From the IMG/VR virus record IMGVR_UViG_2684622582_000002, positions 1-33,594 of that record: 33,594 nucleotides of DNA; one strand, written 5' to 3'. Of this stretch, positions 4,122 through 29,242 are shown piece after piece. The notes under the pieces were generated by a model, which had not been told where the DNA came from, made no database searches, and saw only the letters and a list, made by a program, of their open reading frames with translations. The stretch comes from a virus. Taxonomy: Duplodnaviria; Heunggongvirae; Uroviricota; Caudoviricetes. The position numbers and the translations under genes are program-made. The number at the start of each line of letters is the position of its first letter. The first letter of the stretch is position 1.

Positions 4122-4355
4122 ATGAGTAATGAACTACTACGCTGGCGAAAAGAGGCTTCTAGTGAGGAATGGAAGCGACTCGCCGCATTAGCGAATACTT
4201 CAGTTGGCTATCTTGATCAGATTGCATATGGGTTTCGAAGAGCTTCCCCAGATAAAGCGAATGCAATCGAAGAAGCCACTCGTAATTTCACGGGTTATAA
4301 ACCTGTGAAAAAGGAAAATCTGGTGTTCGTATCGCGTAGAGCATCAGCAGCATAA
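4122..4355 (+). CDS. Cro-like regulator (77 aa)
   Basis: Small ORF divergent from repressor, first gene of rightward operon; helix-turn-helix-like segment NTSVGYLDQIAYG. Confidence 0.7.
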   Translation: MSNELLRWRKEASSEEWKRLAALANTSVGYLDQIAYGFRRASPDKANAIEEATRNFTGYKPVKKENLVFVSRRASAA

Positions 4356-4362
4356 GTAACCC

Positions 4363-4408
4363 CGCTCTTTGTAACAACGGACATTCGTCCTACGTCGCTG
4401 AAAAGCGA
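4363..4408 (+). promoter_or_regulatory. nutR (boxA + boxB)
   Basis: boxA CGCTCTTTG (4363..4371), spacer hairpin GGAC-ATTC-GTCC, boxB TCGCT-GAAAA-AGCGA (4395..4408); parallel to nutL. Confidence 0.6.
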
Positions 4409-4493
4409 GCCCCAAGATATCTGACCAACTAAGGACATATGCGTTTCCACGCATACCTTTCAACTAACTATTCACTATTGGAAATCTTAAGAA

Positions 4494-24282: not shown

Positions 24283-25716
24283 TTGGCTACATGGCAACAG
24301 GCTGGTAATTCAGGCGCTCTTCTTGCCGGGTTAGGCGGCATGAACTCCAACGCTCCAAGAGCAAGTGATGCAGACGCCACGCTTGCATACATTCGACAGA
24401 ATAACGAGATGGAGCGTTCAGGACGTAATAACGTTGGCTTGCAGGCTTTGCAGGGCATTTCATCTGTCATGGATATGTATAAGCAGATGGATCAGCAGAA
24501 GCGACAGCAAGAGTTTCAGCAGGCTTATGCTGATGCATATACATCTGGTGACCGCGATGCAATGCGAAAACTGGCATCACAGTATCCTGAGCAGTTTGAC
24601 GCCGTAAGAAACGGCATGAAATTTGTCGATGAAGACCAGCGTTCCACTGTCGGTACACTGGCAGCAAGTGCCAGACTCGCAGCTTCATCTCCAGAAGCCA
24701 TGATGTCATGGTTGCAGAACAACTCATCTGAGCTTACTCGTGCCGGAGTAGACCCTCTGGATGTGGCGAAAATGTATCAGCAAAATCCACAAGGTTTCAC
24801 AGAGTTTGTTGATCACCTTGGGATGGCTGCGCTTGGTCCGATTGATTACTTCAATGTTCAGGACAAGATGGCTGGTCGGGATATTGAGCGTGGCGAGTTG
24901 GCAGAGACGATTCGCAGCAATAAAGCTGGGGAAGGTTTACAGGCGCAAAGCATTGCTGTTAGCCGTGAAAACTCCCTGCGCACTGCTGGAGGTGCTGTTC
25001 CTGCATCTGTTAAAGAATATCAATATTTCAACAGCCTGTCTCCAGAGCAACAAAAGACATATCTTCGTGTTCGAGGCCGTCCTGATGCTGGCGGGGAGAA
25101 TGTTGTGCAACTGGCAGATGGTAGAACGGTAACGGTAGGCGGGAAACTTCACGGCGCTGGGGCTAATGCGTTCTACGAAGGCATCGATAACGAGGGGAAT
25201 ATGGTTCGCGTTCCTGCCAGTTCAATCGCAGCGCCTGCAACATCGTCTGCATCAGCACAAAACTATGCCATGAAGAAGGATATCGACGCGATCGCAAATG
25301 CAGACGCTTCTGCTCTCGATTTCATGACAGGAATGACCGGCGGCGCAGGTAACCCGGCAATTGGTGCTGATGTTCGCAGCCGATTAACAGGAAAAGAGCA
25401 GCGCCAGTTATATAACTCAGCACAACGTATTCAGGGCAGAATGCAGAATCAGGGCGTGGCGGCAGCAAGAGACATGGGTGCCAGTGGTATTAACACCGTT
25501 GCAGAAGCGAAGATGTATTTTCAGGGGATGCCGCAGGTTGACTATTCAAGCCCGGAGGCTATGCAGCAGTCGATTCGTCAGATTCAGGAATACACCAACA
25601 ATTACAACCAACAATATAACGTTAATGTTGGTAAATCTCAGCGGCAGCAATCTCAACCTGCACAGGTATCACAGCCAGCAGCCAGCAGTAACTTTTCTTC
25701 ACTATGGGGTGATTAA
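24283..25716 (+). CDS. Ejection protein gp20-like, 477 aa
   Basis: Position and size match P22 gp20 (about 471 aa). Confidence 0.7.
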
Positions 25717-27698
25717 TGGCTAAAGCATGGAAAGATGTTATCGCCTCTCCACAGTATCAGGCGTTAGCACCAGAACAAAAAGCGCAGGCTCAGGAGCAAT
25801 ACTTCAATGAAGTCGTGGCCCCGCAAGCCGGAGAAAATGCAGAGCAGGCTAAGCAAGCTTTCTATGCAGCCTATCCATTGCCATCTGTGCAGCCAGTGGA
25901 GACACAGCAACAACCACAGCAAAGTGGATTTATGTCTGATCTTGGTGAAGCAGTGAAAGAGACAGGTCGCGGACTGGTGCAGGCTGGCGTGAACGTGGCA
26001 AACATACCTGCATCAGTTGCCGATGCTGTAACAAGCGCGGCGACTTGGGCTGGCGGTAAACTCGGTATTGGCGATGGTACATATCAACCAGCGCCAAGAG
26101 TAACAACGCAGGGATTAGAGCAGGACTTTGGCCTTCAGCAAGGCGCGCTGACTCCACAAACGACAGAGGGAAGGGTATTTGCTGAAGCATTGCCTTACCT
26201 CACTCCTGCTGGCGTTGAGAGAGCGGCAGCACAGGCACCAACACTTGCTGGTCGAATTGCTCAGGGGGCAACTCGCCTTCTCGCTGAAAACGCAGTTGGA
26301 TCACTTGCTGCAAATAGTGCGAAAGATGATGCGGAAGCACTCGCCACCGATTTAGGCGTTGGCGTTCTGGCTGGCGGCGCTATTAACGCTGCCGGACGTG
26401 GATTAGGTGCTGCTTATCGTGGCGTTCGTGGTGCTATTGCGCCAGAAGCGCAGCAAGCTATCAGATTTGCAGAGCGTGAAGGAGTGCCTCTGCACACCAC
26501 AGACCTGTTACAGCCTACTTCCCGCGTCGGGAAAATGGCGCAGACTACAGCAGAAAATATACCCCTGGCTGGCACAAGCGGAATGAGAGCAACGCAACAG
26601 GAAGCGAGAAGTCAGTTGGTGCAGAGATTTGCTGATAAATTCGGCGAGTATGATCCAGCGGTTGTTATTGACAGCCTTAAAGCGAAAACATCAGGAATTC
26701 GTCGTGCCGCCGGTAATCGACTGGAGCAGGTTCAGAATGCTATGGCTGGAGTAAACATTCAGCCTGCGCGAGCAATTCAGCAGATTGATACAGAAATATC
26801 TAACCTGCAGAAGCTTGGTAAGGTTGCTGATAACGAGACTATTTCAAAACTTCAGTCATATCGTGATGAGCTTGTTCGCAATGCTGGCCCTGATGGTCCT
26901 GTAAATCTGGATTTGAAGCAATTAAGCGACCTGCGCAGCCAGTTCAGAATGGACGTGAAGGGTGAACGACCAGTGTTACCAAACCGTTCCGATGCTGCCA
27001 TTCGGCGCGTTTACAAGGCGATGACAGACGATATCAATGGTGCCATTGGTCAGAATCTTGGCAACGATACTCTCCGTAAATATCAGCAGGCCAATGCCGT
27101 ATACGCTGACGAAGCGGCGAAACTAAAGAATACCAGGCTGAAGAATGTTCTCATGAAAGGCGACCTGACGCCGGAAGTTGTCAACAACATGCTATTCAGC
27201 AAGAACAAATCGGAAATTAAGACGCTGTATAACTCAGTTGGTCGTGTTGGCAGGGCGCAAATGCGCAATGGCATCATTGGAAAGGCGATGGAGAAATCTG
27301 GCGGATCCCCTGACCAGTTCCTTCGGCAGCTTAACATCCTACAAAACCAGACTGGCATCACATTTAAGGGGCAGGACGCTGCTTATCTGAAAGGATTAAA
27401 AAACTACCTGCAATCCACGCAGCAGGCTGCAAAAGCGGCAGTAACAACACCCACAGGACAGCAAACTATCCCGTTCATAATTGGGTATGGGACGGCAATG
27501 AACCCGGCGACAACTGGCGCAGCAGTAAGCTACGGACTTCTTACTCGCGCCTATGAGAGCGAGCCATTCAGAAATGCAATGCTCCGAATGGCAAACACCC
27601 CACGCGGTTCAACAGTGTTTGAGAAAGCCATGCAGCAGGCACAAAAGGCAATTAACGCTATGATGCAGGGGGCTAAGTCTGATGCGTTGTCAGAATAG
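25716..27698 (+). CDS. Ejection protein gp16-like, 660 aa
   Basis: Position and size; start overlaps previous stop. Confidence 0.7.
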   Translation: MAKAWKDVIASPQYQALAPEQKAQAQEQYFNEVVAPQAGENAEQAKQAFYAAYPLPSVQPVETQQQPQQSGFMSDLGEAVKETGRGLVQAGVNVANIPASVADAVTSAATWAGGKLGIGDGTYQPAPRVTTQGLEQDFGLQQGALTPQTTEGRVFAEALPYLTPAGVERAAAQAPTLAGRIAQGATRLLAENAVGSLAANSAKDDAEALATDLGVGVLAGGAINAAGRGLGAAYRGVRGAIAPEAQQAIRFAEREGVPLHTTDLLQPTSRVGKMAQTTAENIPLAGTSGMRATQQEARSQLVQRFADKFGEYDPAVVIDSLKAKTSGIRRAAGNRLEQVQNAMAGVNIQPARAIQQIDTEISNLQKLGKVADNETISKLQSYRDELVRNAGPDGPVNLDLKQLSDLRSQFRMDVKGERPVLPNRSDAAIRRVYKAMTDDINGAIGQNLGNDTLRKYQQANAVYADEAAKLKNTRLKNVLMKGDLTPEVVNNMLFSKNKSEIKTLYNSVGRVGRAQMRNGIIGKAMEKSGGSPDQFLRQLNILQNQTGITFKGQDAAYLKGLKNYLQSTQQAAKAAVTTPTGQQTIPFIIGYGTAMNPATTGAAVSYGLLTRAYESEPFRNAMLRMANTPRGSTVFEKAMQQAQKAINAMMQGAKSDALSE

Positions 27699-27788: not shown

Positions 27789-28274
27789 TTATCTGATGTT
27801 ACTGCTACTGTTGCATGTTACCGTGTTTCCAAATCCTGAATTGCAGTTTGTATATGTGTCAACGCGTGTTGGGTAAGGTTGAGTTATAACAGGCTGGCGC
27901 GCTTTTTGCTCGATCGCTTGCATTGTGTTTACAGCCTGATAATTCAATAAAGCCTGCTGGAATGCTTGGCTTTGCGCTATTTGTTTGGCTTGTTCTTGGC
28001 TTTGTAATTGAACATAAAGATTCTGAAGCTCAAGTCTTGCCTGTGCGTCACTTATCTTGCCTTCATCGACACCTTGCCCGAGCATCTTCGCAGCAAGGAC
28101 ATACAGCTTAGGTGTTGGTGCTGATGCCATGCGTGAGTCGTTCTTCACGCTAGCATCAAGGCAATTAGCCATATCGCTAAGCTTTGGATAGCGTTGTTCG
28201 CAATTTGCCTGATAGTCGCTAACCTTTGCACACCCTGCAAGCAGAAGCGGGATAATTAACAGTGATTTTTTCAT
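27789..28274 (-). CDS. Lipoprotein (cargo; possible superinfection-exclusion or surface function), 161 aa
   Basis: Signal peptide with lipobox MKKSLLIIPLLLAGC, GGAGAG RBS; Gln-rich helical middle, Cys-containing C-terminus; sits where P22 carries sieA. Start moved to the RBS-proximal ATG. Confidence 0.7.
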   Translation of the reverse strand: MKKSLLIIPLLLAGCAKVSDYQANCEQRYPKLSDMANCLDASVKNDSRMASAPTPKLYVLAAKMLGQGVDEGKISDAQARLELQNLYVQLQSQEQAKQIAQSQAFQQALLNYQAVNTMQAIEQKARQPVITQPYPTRVDTYTNCNSGFGNTVTCNSSSNIR

Positions 28275-28408
28275 ATGATTAACTCTCCTTATCTTTGCCA
28301 TCATGGCACTGTTGGGTGTAAATGAGTTATTAACTCAATCGACAATATCTTCACGAAAATACTTTTTATTATTAAGATCTTTCTGATTCTAACAAAACGG
28401 AAAGTAAT

Positions 28409-28828
28409 ATGAAGAGGATTATCGGCGTCGTTGCTGGCGCTATATTGTTATCTGGGTGCGCAACTATTGTTGGTGATGAAACGCAACTTGTGCAAGTGAA
28501 CAGCAATCCTTCTGGCGCGAGCTTTAAGGTAAAAGATGAATCTGGTGTGATTGTTGCGCAAGGTAAGACTCCACAAGGTGTAACACTCGCCAAGTCAGAT
28601 GGTAGCTATTTTGGCAAAAAGAGCTACCAGATCACTATGGAGAAGGATGGATACGAGCCAGTTACCCTGCCAATAAAAGCCAATGCTAATGGTTGGTATA
28701 TTGGTGGAAACCTTGTGTTTGGTGGGTTAATTGGTTGGCTTGCTGTAGATCCATTTAATGGTGGGATGTATACCTTGAAGCCTAAAGAGGCAAATGCATC
28801 CCTTATACCGTCCACAAAGCAAGACTAA
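28409..28828 (+). CDS. Lipoprotein with PEGA-like domain (139 aa)
   Basis: Lipobox AILLSGC; pattern NPSGASFKV-DESGVIVAQGKTPQGVTL...KDGYEP resembles PEGA domains; Gly-rich GGLIGWLAVDPFNGG segment; followed by a terminator. Confidence 0.65.
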   Translation: MKRIIGVVAGAILLSGCATIVGDETQLVQVNSNPSGASFKVKDESGVIVAQGKTPQGVTLAKSDGSYFGKKSYQITMEKDGYEPVTLPIKANANGWYIGGNLVFGGLIGWLAVDPFNGGMYTLKPKEANASLIPSTKQD

Positions 28829-28835
28829 TAAATGG

Positions 28836-28860
28836 AACCCACCATCAGGTGGGTTTTTTG
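28836..28860 (+). terminator. Intrinsic terminator after lipoprotein gene (overlaps mnt 3' end)
   Basis: Hairpin AACCCACC-ATCA-GGTGGGTT followed by TTTTTT. Confidence 0.55.
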
Positions 28861-29096
28861 TACAAATCCTTCAGCGTATCAAACACCATCTTCTTAACAA
28901 GTTCAGACTGCTCATCAGCGATGCGTTCCGCATCGTCTCGATAGCCTGAAATTTTGGATGGCTTTGATACAGCATCAGTCACTATCTGAACTAATTCTGA
29001 ATTAAGAGAGCGGCCATTGGATTTGGCTCGCTGTTTTAGTTTTTCCTTTAATTCGTAAGGTAGCCGCAGATTAAATTGCGGGTCATCTCTTCCCAT
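28845..29096 (-). CDS. mnt: Mnt repressor (ribbon-helix-helix), 83 aa
   Basis: MGRDDPQFNLRLPYELKEKLKQRAKSNGRSLNSELVQIVTDAVSKPS...DEQSELVKKMVFDTLKDLYKKPT closely matches remembered P22 Mnt in length and sequence. Confidence 0.85.
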   Translation of the reverse strand: MGRDDPQFNLRLPYELKEKLKQRAKSNGRSLNSELVQIVTDAVSKPSKISGYRDDAERIADEQSELVKKMVFDTLKDLYKKPT

Positions 29097-29159
29097 TCTT
29101 GATGCCTCGCTTTTGTGAGTGGATCGGCATCTTATTATCTGCTGGTTGCATCCTCAATA

Positions 29160-29174
29160 AGACCACAGTGGTCT
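29160..29174. promoter_or_regulatory. Candidate Mnt operator (palindrome) in Pmnt/Pant-equivalent region
   Basis: Perfect palindrome AGACCAC-A-GTGGTCT, resembling the remembered P22 Omnt core (GTCCACGGTGGAC), between mnt and the tailspike gene. Confidence 0.5.
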
Positions 29175-29242
29175 CTTTGTTTGATTAATAATGCATCACT
29201 GTGGCAATGCTGCGGCGATTCCTTGTATCTGGAGCAAATTAA

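What the first reader, a model, noticed from the sequence alone, without database searches (positions are those of the whole stretch)
27789..28828. Divergent pair of lipoprotein cargo genes at the sieA-equivalent position
Two lipoprotein genes with textbook lipoboxes (LLAGC on the minus strand, LLSGC on the plus strand) face away from each other across a 134-bp interval (28275..28408), between the ejection-protein genes and mnt. One has a PEGA-like domain and a Gly-rich segment, the other a Gln-rich helical region. Prophage lipoproteins at this kind of site often mediate superinfection exclusion or modify the cell surface. Function here is unknown.
Basis: partly seen in the sequence, partly recalled or inferred. 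Interest (0 to 1): 0.5.

Follow-up and report, generated by a model that had tools for sequence, protein, structure and literature searches.

The report
Two prophage-expressed lipoprotein cargo genes
A P22-like prophage of K1-type E. coli carries two unrelated, independently mobile lipoprotein genes where phage P22 keeps its superinfection-exclusion gene sieA; both are real, strongly conserved and switched on in lysogens of a near-identical prophage, but what they do is still untested.

Summary
Gene A (27789..28274, minus strand, 161 aa, lipobox LLAGC) and gene B (28409..28828, plus strand, 139 aa, lipobox LLSGC) diverge across a 134-bp, 31% GC spacer between the gp16-type ejection gene and mnt.

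- **Real genes.** Both are under strong purifying selection (dN/dS 0-0.09).
- **Not a pair.** Among 5426 E. coli genomes, A occurs in 186, B in 124, and the two together in 24.
- **A and sieA.** A is almost confined to P22-like prophages, always in this slot. In many relatives it sits directly behind the P22 sieA promoter and ribosome-binding site. Elsewhere it follows mnt or a CI-type repressor.
- **B.** It is a phage-captured member of a very large uncharacterised bacterial lipoprotein family. It has a transthyretin/PEGA-like sandwich and an invariant glycine-rich hydrophobic loop. A 68%-identical copy fills the HK97 gp15 moron slot.
- **Expression.** Published RNA-seq of the 96-97% identical prophage Gally shows both genes transcribed while late genes are silent. 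They are induced in DMEM and macrophages.

No homology, fold or defence-database search assigns a function. The best reading is two separate lysogenic-conversion outer-membrane lipoproteins, with A a likely SieA substitute. Exclusion itself is inferred, not shown.

The parts
25716..27698 (+). gp16-type DNA-ejection protein gene, the left boundary of the cargo region (context)
   Evidence: phrog_770 'DNA transfer protein', E 1.4e-236. It is 97% identical to Gally GALLYPH_12.
27789..28274 (-). Gene A: a 161-aa lipoprotein. It has a signal peptide with lipobox LLAGC (Cys15), a disulfide-containing helical domain, a Gln-rich helix and a C-terminal Cys loop. It is convergent with gene 16, in the same place, orientation and size class as P22 sieA.
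   Evidence: phrog_6067, E 5e-109, function unknown. 91 close homologues in Enterobacterales and 255 representatives in the deep search. dN/dS 0.04-0.09. Gally orthologue GALLYPH_13 is transcribed in lysogens.
28230..28241 (-). Lipobox L-A-G-C of gene A (residues 12-15). Ala at +2 predicts sorting to the outer membrane.
   Evidence: Cys15 is invariant in 32 close homologues and at least 90% conserved in the wider family.
27900..28025 (-). Gln-rich helical segment of A (residues 84-125, 13 Gln)
   Evidence: It lies within the AlphaFold helix 76-125. Length and sequence vary across the wider family.
27813..27845 (-). C-terminal Cys144-x9-Cys154 loop of A (TNCxxxGNxVxCNS)
   Evidence: Both Cys are at least 90% conserved across the distant family. 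Cys25 and Cys38 are invariant.
28275..28408 (.). 134-bp AT-rich divergent control region. Candidate P_B has -35 TTCACG at 28350-28355 and -10 TAAGAT at 28373-28378, with SD GGAAAG at 28399-28404. Candidate P_A has -35 TTGTTA at 28395-28390 and -10 AATAAT at 28373-28368. The SD of A, AAGGAG, is at 28285-28290 on the minus strand.
   Evidence: GC 30.6%. The P_B-like element TTCAC[A/G]-N17-TA[A/G]GAT is conserved upstream of B in five P22-like loci. The P_A candidate comes from the consensus scan. These are consensus matches only, and no transcription start site has been mapped.
28409..28828 (+). Gene B: a 139-aa lipoprotein. It has lipobox LLSGC (Cys17), a transthyretin/PEGA-like beta-sandwich and a conserved Gly-rich hydrophobic loop.
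   Evidence: phrog_6823, E 6e-86, function unknown. At least 4585 related clusters. AlphaFold pLDDT 77 overall and above 90 in the sandwich. dN/dS 0-0.05. Gally orthologue GALLYPH_14, 100% identical in protein, is transcribed in lysogens.
28448..28459 (+). Lipobox L-S-G-C of gene B (residues 14-17). Ala at +2 predicts sorting to the outer membrane.
   Evidence: C17 and A18 are invariant in 43 homologues.
28688..28783 (+). Conserved C-terminal motif of B (residues 94-125, NGWYIGGNLVFGGLIGWLAVDPFNGGMYTLKP). Its hydrophobic core is modelled with low confidence.
   Evidence: Most invariant columns of the family lie here. Kyte-Doolittle hydropathy is 1.2-1.6 over 15-residue windows starting at residues 97-102. 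pLDDT is below 50 for residues 97-112, while flanking strands score above 90.
28836..28855 (.). Hairpin AACCCACC-tgat-GGTGGGTT, read here as a two-way terminator closing gene B and the convergent mnt
   Evidence: The terminator scan called it on the minus strand. The T-run after the hairpin on the plus strand is visible in the sequence. The equivalent hairpin is annotated as a rho-independent terminator between gene 15 and mnt in phage epsilon34.
28845..29096 (-). mnt (Arc/Mnt-type repressor), the right boundary of the cargo region (context). No arc or ant genes follow.
   Evidence: Pfam Arc E 3e-22 and Repressor_Mnt E 2e-18.

Best explanation
Genes A and B are two separate lysogenic-conversion ('moron') genes. 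They fill the two cargo slots of the accessory region that P22-like phages keep between ejection gene 16 and mnt.

Export and location (inferred): each product is exported by Sec and lipid-modified at Cys15 (A) or Cys17 (B). With Ala at +2, each is sorted by Lol to the inner leaflet of the outer membrane, facing the periplasm.

Expression (shown for a near-identical prophage): both are made from the repressed prophage, independently of the late operon. They rise sharply in host-like conditions.

Gene A: it is a cassette alternative to sieA, swapped in behind the same expression signals. Its mature protein is a disulfide-stabilised helical domain, then a roughly 40-residue Gln-rich helix, then a small disulfide loop. 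The most likely job (inferred, about 35-40%) is to block the trans-periplasmic DNA-delivery conduit that the ejection proteins of incoming P22-like phages build. It would act from the outer-membrane side, whereas SieA acts from the inner membrane.

Gene B: it is a bacterial envelope lipoprotein captured by phages. Its beta-sandwich carries an invariant hydrophobic Gly-rich loop that probably dips into the membrane or grips a conserved host envelope component. It either interferes with phage entry (about 20-25%) or improves envelope fitness in the host (about 50%).

The two do not need each other.
For: Expression. In LF82 lysogens of Gally (A 97%, B 100% protein identity), values are log2 fpkm (PMC9928086 S1 Table):
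- GALLYPH_13 (A): 6.1 in LB, 7.9-8.2 in DMEM, 10.3 in macrophages at 1 h.
- GALLYPH_14 (B): 5.5 in LB, 9.8-10.5 in DMEM, 11.0 in macrophages at 1 h.
- The adjacent gene 16 and other late genes stay at about 2.5-5. The C2 repressor is 9-12.
- In LB, A and B are among the most-transcribed Gally genes after c2. They fall just under that paper's 5-fold moron cutoff (70 and 51 counts against a cutoff of 78).

Slot equivalence for A. The P22 sieA upstream element and SD precede A in 36 loci. Fourteen loci keep the full P22 sieA promoter and orf59a-mnt. No P22-type sieA or hkcB-like gene co-occurs with A.

Other lysogenic operons for A. A directly follows mnt on the same strand in L037, L039, L045 and L091. 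A distant member (phrog_6067, E 3e-17) overlaps the stop codon of a CI-type repressor gene, opposite a Cro-like gene.

Phage-type specificity of A. In 78 of 80 IMG/VR loci, A lies in a P22-like late region, between gp7/gp20/gp16 and, wherever the contig reaches it, the tailspike head-binding domain. It occurs next to at least three gp16 types.

B as a mobile moron. It is found alone in epsilon34 (gp15) and in O111 and other prophages. It fills the HK97 gp15 slot, between the tail chaperone and tape-measure genes, in E. coli prophages, and sits before the tape-measure gene in Proteus prophages. It is also a stand-alone chromosomal gene in Enterobacter and environmental bacteria.

Both slots hold proven injection blockers in the model phages: SieA (PMC10883804) and HK97 gp15 (PMC3594210).

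Independence of A and B. Strong constraint on both. Lipoboxes with an invariant Cys.
Against: - No phenotype has been measured for either protein, and position is weak evidence of function. Other cargo classes in the same gene16-to-tailspike interval include Ant, Arc, orf59a and other small proteins.
- Neither protein resembles SieA, Cor, SlyB or any PADLOC defence model.
- Very strong purifying selection argues for a conserved host target rather than an arms race with phage proteins. The B protein is identical between prophages at dS about 0.3.
- Induction in DMEM and macrophages, and carriage by K1, AIEC, O26 and O111 strains, would equally fit a host-interaction or stress role, like the Bor lipoprotein noted in the same paper.
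- In the window-type spacer the sieA promoter element is degenerate, so A's promoter here is only a consensus guess.
- Lipidation and outer-membrane location are predictions.
- The expression data come from Gally, not from this exact prophage.
Confidence: 0.6

Rival explanations
1. Host-adaptation or envelope-stress cargo, not anti-phage. One or both lipoproteins would strengthen or remodel the outer membrane or periplasm during life in the host, for example against serum, lysozyme, antimicrobial peptides, bile or macrophage stress. This would resemble lambda Bor.
For: - Both genes are low in LB and high in DMEM and macrophages. Macrophage 1 h against LB is about 18-fold for A and about 45-fold for B.
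- The same paper notes DMEM induction of the Bor lipoprotein moron of another LF82 prophage.
- B belongs to a huge, mostly non-phage bacterial lipoprotein family with stand-alone chromosomal members.
- Extreme purifying selection suggests a conserved host partner.
- Carriers include K1, AIEC, O26 and O111 strains.
Against: - A is almost restricted to P22-like phages, at the sieA slot and behind sieA signals. That is hard to explain for a general fitness factor.
- The B homologue replaces the exclusion gene gp15 in HK97-like prophages.
- No similarity to Bor, lysozyme inhibitors or any characterised virulence lipoprotein was found.
Confidence: 0.3
2. A and B form a two-component system that works only together, sharing a divergent promoter region.
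For: They are adjacent and divergent across one conserved 134-bp spacer in this window, in Gally, in vB_EcoP-720R6 and in 17 IMG/VR contigs. Both rise in the same conditions.
Against: - A occurs in 186 E. coli genomes and B in 124, but they are adjacent in only 24.
- A occurs alone in O26 prophages, VSe13, Serratia and Morganella.
- B occurs alone in epsilon34, O111, siphovirus prophages and bacterial chromosomes.
- mnt, the tailspike gene and gene 17 are co-induced as well.
Confidence: 0.04
3. Lytic-cycle or virion function, such as a spanin-like lysis lipoprotein or an assembly or ejection accessory expressed with the late operon.
For: The genes lie at the end of the late structural gene block. 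B has the same orientation as the late operon, and in one prophage it follows gene 16 directly.
Against: - A is antisense to the late operon.
- Both genes are transcribed at 8-11 log2 fpkm while gene 16 next door stays at 3.6-4.1.
- Many functional P22-like phages lack both genes, including P22 itself.
- Gally has its own annotated holin, lysin and Rz genes elsewhere.
- No structural family matches.
Confidence: 0.03

Closest known systems
P22 SieA (inner-membrane superinfection-exclusion protein; PMC10883804)
   Same: Gene A has the same locus, orientation (convergent with gene 16) and size (161 against 164 aa). In many relatives it has the same upstream promoter and SD sequence. It is expressed from the prophage, confined to P22-like prophages, and mutually exclusive with P22-type sieA in the loci examined.
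   Different: There is no sequence similarity. SieA is a polytopic inner-membrane protein with a cytoplasmic FxRYPxEAxxFNK motif. A is a secreted lipoprotein with no internal hydrophobic segment, four conserved Cys and predicted outer-membrane anchoring. Exclusion by A is untested.
HK97 gp15 moron (inner-membrane exclusion protein derived from bacterial YebO; PMC3594210)
   Same: A 68%-identical homologue of B occupies exactly the gp15 slot, between the tail chaperone G/T genes and the tape-measure gene, in HK97-like E. coli prophages. Like gp15, B appears to be a bacterial envelope protein captured by phages.
   Different: gp15 is a 62-aa inner-membrane protein. B is a 139-aa lipoprotein with a beta-sandwich. 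No relationship to gp15 was tested or is expected. B's function is unknown.
Receptor-blocking phage lipoproteins Cor (phi80/N15/HK022) and Llp (T5)
   Same: They are small prophage- or phage-encoded outer-membrane lipoproteins that act on the cell envelope to stop incoming phages. Cor is described; Llp is cited from the author's own knowledge.
Ltp of Streptococcus thermophilus phage TP-J34 (lipoprotein that blocks DNA injection; PMC3952083)
   Same: It is a prophage-expressed, lipid-anchored helical protein placed outside the cytoplasmic membrane that blocks DNA entry. This is the nearest functional analogy for what A is proposed to do (abstract seen).
Lambda Bor / Iss family (prophage outer-membrane lipoprotein, serum resistance)
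   Same: It is a prophage moron lipoprotein expressed in lysogens. A Bor gene in another LF82 prophage is induced in DMEM, as A and B are.
   Different: No sequence or family match was found. It sits in a different genomic slot.

Membership tests
Bacterial lipoprotein (signal peptidase II substrate) | N-terminal signal peptide ending in a lipobox [LVI][ASTVI][GAS]C, with the Cys conserved | tested here: met
   A has LAGC with Cys15 and B has LSGC with Cys17, each after a basic n-region and a hydrophobic h-region. The Cys is invariant in 32 and 43 close homologues.
Bacterial lipoprotein (signal peptidase II substrate) | Actual diacylglyceryl modification, globomycin-sensitive cleavage, and outer-membrane sorting (no Asp at +2) | not testable with these tools
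   Ala at +2 in both proteins predicts Lol-dependent outer-membrane sorting by the +2 rule (established knowledge). No biochemical data are available.
Moron / lysogenic-conversion gene | Present or absent between otherwise related phage genomes (an add-on cassette) | tested here: met
   A is in 186, B in 124 and both in 24 of 5426 E. coli genomes. P22 has sieA and orf59a instead. epsilon34 has an hkcB-like gene plus B.
Moron / lysogenic-conversion gene | Transcribed from the repressed prophage, independently of lytic operons | tested here: met
   This was met for the Gally orthologues (97% and 100% protein identity). Values are 6 to 11 log2 fpkm against about 2.5-5 for late genes. It was not measured for this exact prophage.
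Moron / lysogenic-conversion gene | Own promoter and terminator | tested here: inconclusive
   B has a conserved TTCAC[A/G]-N17-TA[A/G]GAT element and a downstream hairpin terminator. In relatives A uses the annotated P22 sieA promoter, but in this window there is only a 9/12 consensus match. No transcription start sites are mapped.
P22 SieA family | Gene located between gene 16 and gene 9 homologues of a P22-like prophage | tested here: met
   with the locus definition taken.
P22 SieA family | Sequence similarity to SieA types A, B or C, several transmembrane helices, and the FxRYPxEAxxFNK motif | tested here: not met
   BLASTP of A against P22 SieA gives no alignment. B aligns over only 31 residues at E 0.037. 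Neither has the motif. A has no hydrophobic segment after the signal peptide. Types B and C were not compared directly.
PEGA domain (Pfam PF08308) / transthyretin-like sandwich, for gene B | Pfam score above the gathering threshold | tested here: not met
   The score is 17.6 bits against a cutoff of 20.8, E 0.0037.
PEGA domain (Pfam PF08308) / transthyretin-like sandwich, for gene B | Seven-stranded beta-sandwich fold of the transthyretin / carboxypeptidase-regulatory type | tested here: met
Cor / Llp receptor-blocking lipoproteins | Sequence or profile similarity beyond the signal peptide | tested here: not met
   phrog_1119 (Cor) matches B residues 1-20 only, E 0.0034, and does not match A.
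SlyB / glycine-zipper outer-membrane lipoproteins, for gene B | Profile similarity to SlyB, including its glycine-zipper hairpin | tested here: not met
   hhalign of the B alignment against E. coli SlyB gives probability 1.3%, with only the signal peptides aligned. No glycine-zipper Pfam hit was found.
Known anti-phage defence systems (PADLOC-DB) | Match to any defence-system protein model | tested here: not met
   There were no hits for A or B at E up to 1.

The most novel reading that the evidence does not exclude
Gene A founds a new class of superinfection-exclusion protein: an outer-membrane-tethered periplasmic lipoprotein that stops short-tailed P22-like phages from completing their ejection-protein conduit. 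It would be an outer-membrane-side counterpart that evolution has swapped one-for-one with the inner-membrane protein SieA behind the same promoter. Its distant relatives in other temperate phages, some in repressor operons, would do the same for other phage types. Gene B would be a second, unrelated envelope-acting moron whose invariant hydrophobic loop targets a conserved host envelope machine that phages need for DNA delivery. That would explain why phages of three different tail types park it next to their DNA-delivery genes.
Probability: 0.25. Interest if true: 0.65.

Novelty: new member of a known kind. Interest (0 to 1): 0.45.

Why it matters
Only about a third of sequenced P22-like phages carry sieA (22 of 66, PMC10883804). 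What fills that slot in the others has not been described.

Gene A is shown here to be a clean allelic replacement of sieA by an unrelated lipoprotein. This gives a directly testable candidate for a second, mechanistically different block to podovirus DNA delivery. The strains and hybrid phages built for the SieA work could test it.

The expression data also revise a published statement that prophage Gally of the Crohn's-associated strain LF82 carries no morons. Its two lipoprotein genes sit just under the LB cutoff. In DMEM and macrophages they are among its most highly transcribed genes after c2.

Gene B puts a first biological handle on a very large uncharacterised family of bacterial lipoproteins (at least 4585 sequence clusters).

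If neither gene excludes phages, they are still candidate host-adaptation factors in K1, AIEC and EHEC lineages.

Tried and rejected
- **Family and structure searches.** Pfam, NCBIfam, PHROGs and PADLOC gave no functional family.
  - The NCBIfam GspK hit to A (18.5 bits against a cutoff of 130), and one database record naming a homologue GspK, are artefacts of the Gln-rich helix.
  - JGI's 'YceK' label for B homologues has no support from Pfam.
  - PDB sequence profiles found nothing.
  - Foldseek of B against viral models gave one unnamed homologue only.
  - The afdb50 library was not available.
- **Specific homology tests.** Homology to SieA was rejected. Homology of B to SlyB was rejected.
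- **Distant A relatives.** The search for related loci with the most divergent A alignment failed for lack of a conserved stretch. The species-representative genome scan returned only 5 loci. Context for most distant A relatives could not be obtained, because contigs were short.
- **Literature.** A search for the LF82 locus tags found nothing. No paper found discusses epsilon34 gp15 or these proteins.
- **Regulation.** I looked by eye for a PhoP box or a sigma-E promoter in the spacer and saw nothing convincing. I did not pursue it.
- **B upstream regions.** Those in siphovirus prophages and in chromosomes are unrelated to the P22-like one.
- **Two-component idea.** It was rejected on distribution.
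Full report
**What the window is.** The window is a P22-like (Lederbergvirus-type) prophage.
- It has the gp7, gp20 and gp16 ejection genes (Pfam P22_gp7 and Inj_translocase; phrog_770) and an Mnt repressor gene.
- It has a 981-aa tailspike with a P22 head-binding domain fused to an endosialidase, so it is a K1-capsule-specific, CUS-3-like phage.
- The 1.5 kb around the finding is 96.5-96.9% identical to Escherichia phages vB_EcoP-720R6 and Gally, the active prophage of AIEC strain LF82. There both genes are annotated 'hypothetical protein'.

- Gene A is 27789..28274 on the minus strand, 161 aa, starting MKKSLLIIPLLLAGC. It has AAGGAG ten bases upstream.
- Gene B is 28409..28828 on the plus strand, 139 aa, starting MKRIIGVVAGAILLSGC.
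- The spacer is 134 bp at 30.6% GC.
- Both lipoboxes fit the consensus, and the acceptor Cys is invariant in the alignments of close homologues.
- Ala at +2 predicts outer-membrane sorting. This rests on the established +2 rule and was not tested.
- Both are real genes under strong constraint. dN/dS is 0.04-0.09 for A. For B it is 0-0.05, with 23-26 synonymous differences and no amino-acid change against the Gally and O111 copies.

**Anatomy of A.**
- The AlphaFold model is moderate (pLDDT 63, about 80 over residues 18-100).
- It shows a small helical domain, one long helix to residue 125 carrying 13 Gln, and a disordered tail.
- A profile search of 1.84 billion representatives finds 255 relatives. 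These are 125-160-aa lipoproteins that share four elements:
  - Q22-x2-C25 and C38, which are invariant;
  - the helical core;
  - a variable linker;
  - a C-terminal C-x9-C loop.
- Four conserved Cys in a secreted protein point to two periplasmic disulfides. This is an inference.
- No Pfam family, PDB relative or informative fold match exists.

**Anatomy of B.**
- The model is confident for a beta-sandwich (residues 24-93 and 121-131, pLDDT above 90). It is poor for the loop at residues 97-112.
- Family invariants cluster in NGWYIGGN..FGGLIG.L.VDPF.GGMY.L.P. This segment is moderately hydrophobic.
- The segment returns to the sandwich, so I read it as a membrane-dipping or partner-binding loop. 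This is an inference.
- The family is very large, with at least 4585 clusters.
- It includes stand-alone chromosomal genes with no conserved neighbours in Enterobacter and in environmental Gammaproteobacteria.

**The two genes are independent cassettes.**
- Among 5426 complete E. coli genomes, A is in 186, B in 124, and both adjacent in 24.
- A occurs without B in O26 prophages, Salmonella phage VSe13, Serratia and Morganella.
- B occurs without A in epsilon34 (gp15), O111 and other prophages.

**A is a replacement for sieA.**
- P22 sieA is 164 aa, on the minus strand, convergent with gene 16, with its own annotated promoter.
- An alignment of upstream regions shows one shared element, TTTTTTCATGGTATCCTGC.CAAAACTAAGGAG. 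It runs into the start codon of P22 sieA, of the hkcB-like gene of epsilon34 and O111, and of gene A in O26 and VSe13.
- Of 95 A-family loci whose upstream region I classified, 36 have this element. Fourteen retain the complete P22 context, with the full sieA promoter and a 98%-identical orf59a before mnt.
- No A locus has a P22-type sieA or an hkcB-like gene.
- In 78 of 80 IMG/VR contigs, A lies in a P22-like late region, between the ejection genes and the tailspike head-binding domain wherever the contig reaches it. It sits next to at least three very different gp16 types.
- In four contigs A follows mnt directly on the same strand.
- In a non-P22-like contig, a distant member overlaps the stop codon of a CI-type repressor gene that diverges from a Cro-like gene.
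- So three independent arrangements place this family under lysogeny-expressed promoters.
- A has no sequence similarity to SieA and a different predicted location. It is not a SieA family member.

**B sits in moron slots next to DNA-delivery genes.**
- A 68%-identical copy lies between the tail chaperone G/T genes and the tape-measure gene of HK97-like E. coli prophages.
- A 71%-identical copy lies just before the tape-measure gene of Proteus prophages.
- The former is exactly the slot of HK97 gene 15. HK97 gene 15 was the first described moron. It encodes an inner-membrane exclusion protein derived from the bacterial YebO family (PMC3594210).
- In P22-like loci, B carries a conserved upstream TTCAC[A/G]-N17-TA[A/G]GAT element. 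It ends at a hairpin shared with the convergent mnt, which is annotated as a terminator in epsilon34.

**Expression.** The table gives log2 fpkm from S1 Table of PMC9928086.

| Condition | GALLYPH_13 (A) | GALLYPH_14 (B) |
|---|---|---|
| LB overnight | 6.3 / 6.0 | 6.2 / 4.8 |
| DMEM (columns B1 and B6) | 7.9-8.2 | 9.8-10.5 |
| Macrophages, 1 h | 10.3 | 11.0 |
| Macrophages, 6 h | 8.5-8.7 | 9.4-9.5 |

- I read columns B1 and B6 as DMEM at 1 h and 6 h, from the table caption.
- Gene 16 next door stays at 3.6-4.1. The C2 repressor is 8.9-12.0.
- The signal is therefore not spontaneous lytic induction.
- In LB the two genes give 70 and 51 normalised counts against a median of 15.6. This is just under that paper's 5-fold cutoff of 78, which is why the authors wrote that Gally has no morons.
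- They did note that the five rightmost genes are induced 6- to 40-fold in macrophages.
- The Gally spacer is the same as the window's over the aligned stretch, and 18 loci carry this window-type A-proximal element.

**Interpretation.**
- *Shown:* there are two independent, strongly constrained lipoprotein genes. They are polymorphic cargo in the gene16-to-mnt accessory region and are transcribed from a near-identical repressed prophage. A is interchangeable with sieA at the sequence level.
- *Inferred:* lipidation, an outer-membrane and periplasmic location, and the disulfides.
- *Hypothesised:* A blocks DNA delivery by P22-like phages from the outer-membrane side (about 35-40%). B either interferes with phage entry (about 20-25%) or serves envelope fitness in host conditions (about 50%).
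- Against an arms-race role stand the very low dN/dS and the host-condition induction. Both fit a conserved host target.

**What is known and what is new.**
- The sequences are already in databases as hypothetical proteins and as unknown-function PHROGs 6067 and 6823. The locus type is well known.
- Three results are new:
  - the sieA-for-A swap;
  - the placement of the A family in three lysogenic operon contexts;
  - the reading of existing RNA-seq as conditional moron expression.
- No function is demonstrated, so I rate this a new member of a known kind, of moderate interest.

Noticed in passing
window 32345-32402 and 32713-33048: A perfect heptanucleotide repeat, TCAAGAC x 8.3, lies just downstream of the endosialidase tailspike. 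A hexapeptide-repeat acyltransferase ORF fragment follows it (Pfam Hexapep). From my own knowledge this resembles the phase-variable polysialic-acid O-acetyltransferase gene neoO of phage CUS-3. The split ORF suggests the repeat number may put it out of frame (phase OFF).
   Followed up: partly
window 28845-29242: The immI region is reduced to mnt alone. There is no arc, ant or sar between mnt and the tailspike gene, as in Gally. P22, epsilon34 and the O111 prophage do have them.
   Followed up: partly
window 29243-32188: The tailspike is a 981-aa fusion. It joins the P22 head-binding domain to a full endosialidase (N-terminal extension, beta-propeller, beta-barrel, tailspike domain) and a C-terminal Peptidase_S74 intramolecular chaperone. 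This marks the prophage as K1-capsule specific.
   Followed up: no
Gally prophage (L001; PMC9928086 S1 Table): mnt, the tailspike gene and the small gene after it (GALLYPH_15-17) rise together with the two lipoprotein genes in DMEM and macrophages, on both strands. Several promoters at this AT-rich prophage end therefore respond to the same conditions. Relief of a global silencer such as H-NS is a possible cause. I did not test it.
   Followed up: no
L009-L012 (Proteus prophages), about 4309-4491: A 76%-identical homologue of P22 orf59a lies about 1.5 kb from the B homologue in Proteus siphovirus prophages. orf59a also accompanies gene A in 14 P22-like contigs. orf59a looks like another wandering small cargo gene of unknown function.
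   Followed up: no
IMG/VR loci L048-L063, between gene A and the tailspike gene: Other recurrent cargo lies in the same gene16-to-tailspike interval. One is a 121-aa protein with an HExxH-like HECAH motif (14 loci). Another is a 64-aa basic Gly-rich protein (14 loci). A third is a 105-aa protein with a cleavable signal peptide (9 loci). None was characterised.
   Followed up: no
window 28350-28395: The candidate promoters of A and B interdigitate. Each -35 lies in the other's transcribed leader, and the two -10 hexamers abut at 28368-28378. If these promoters are real, RNA polymerase could not occupy both at once. They are consensus matches only.
   Followed up: no
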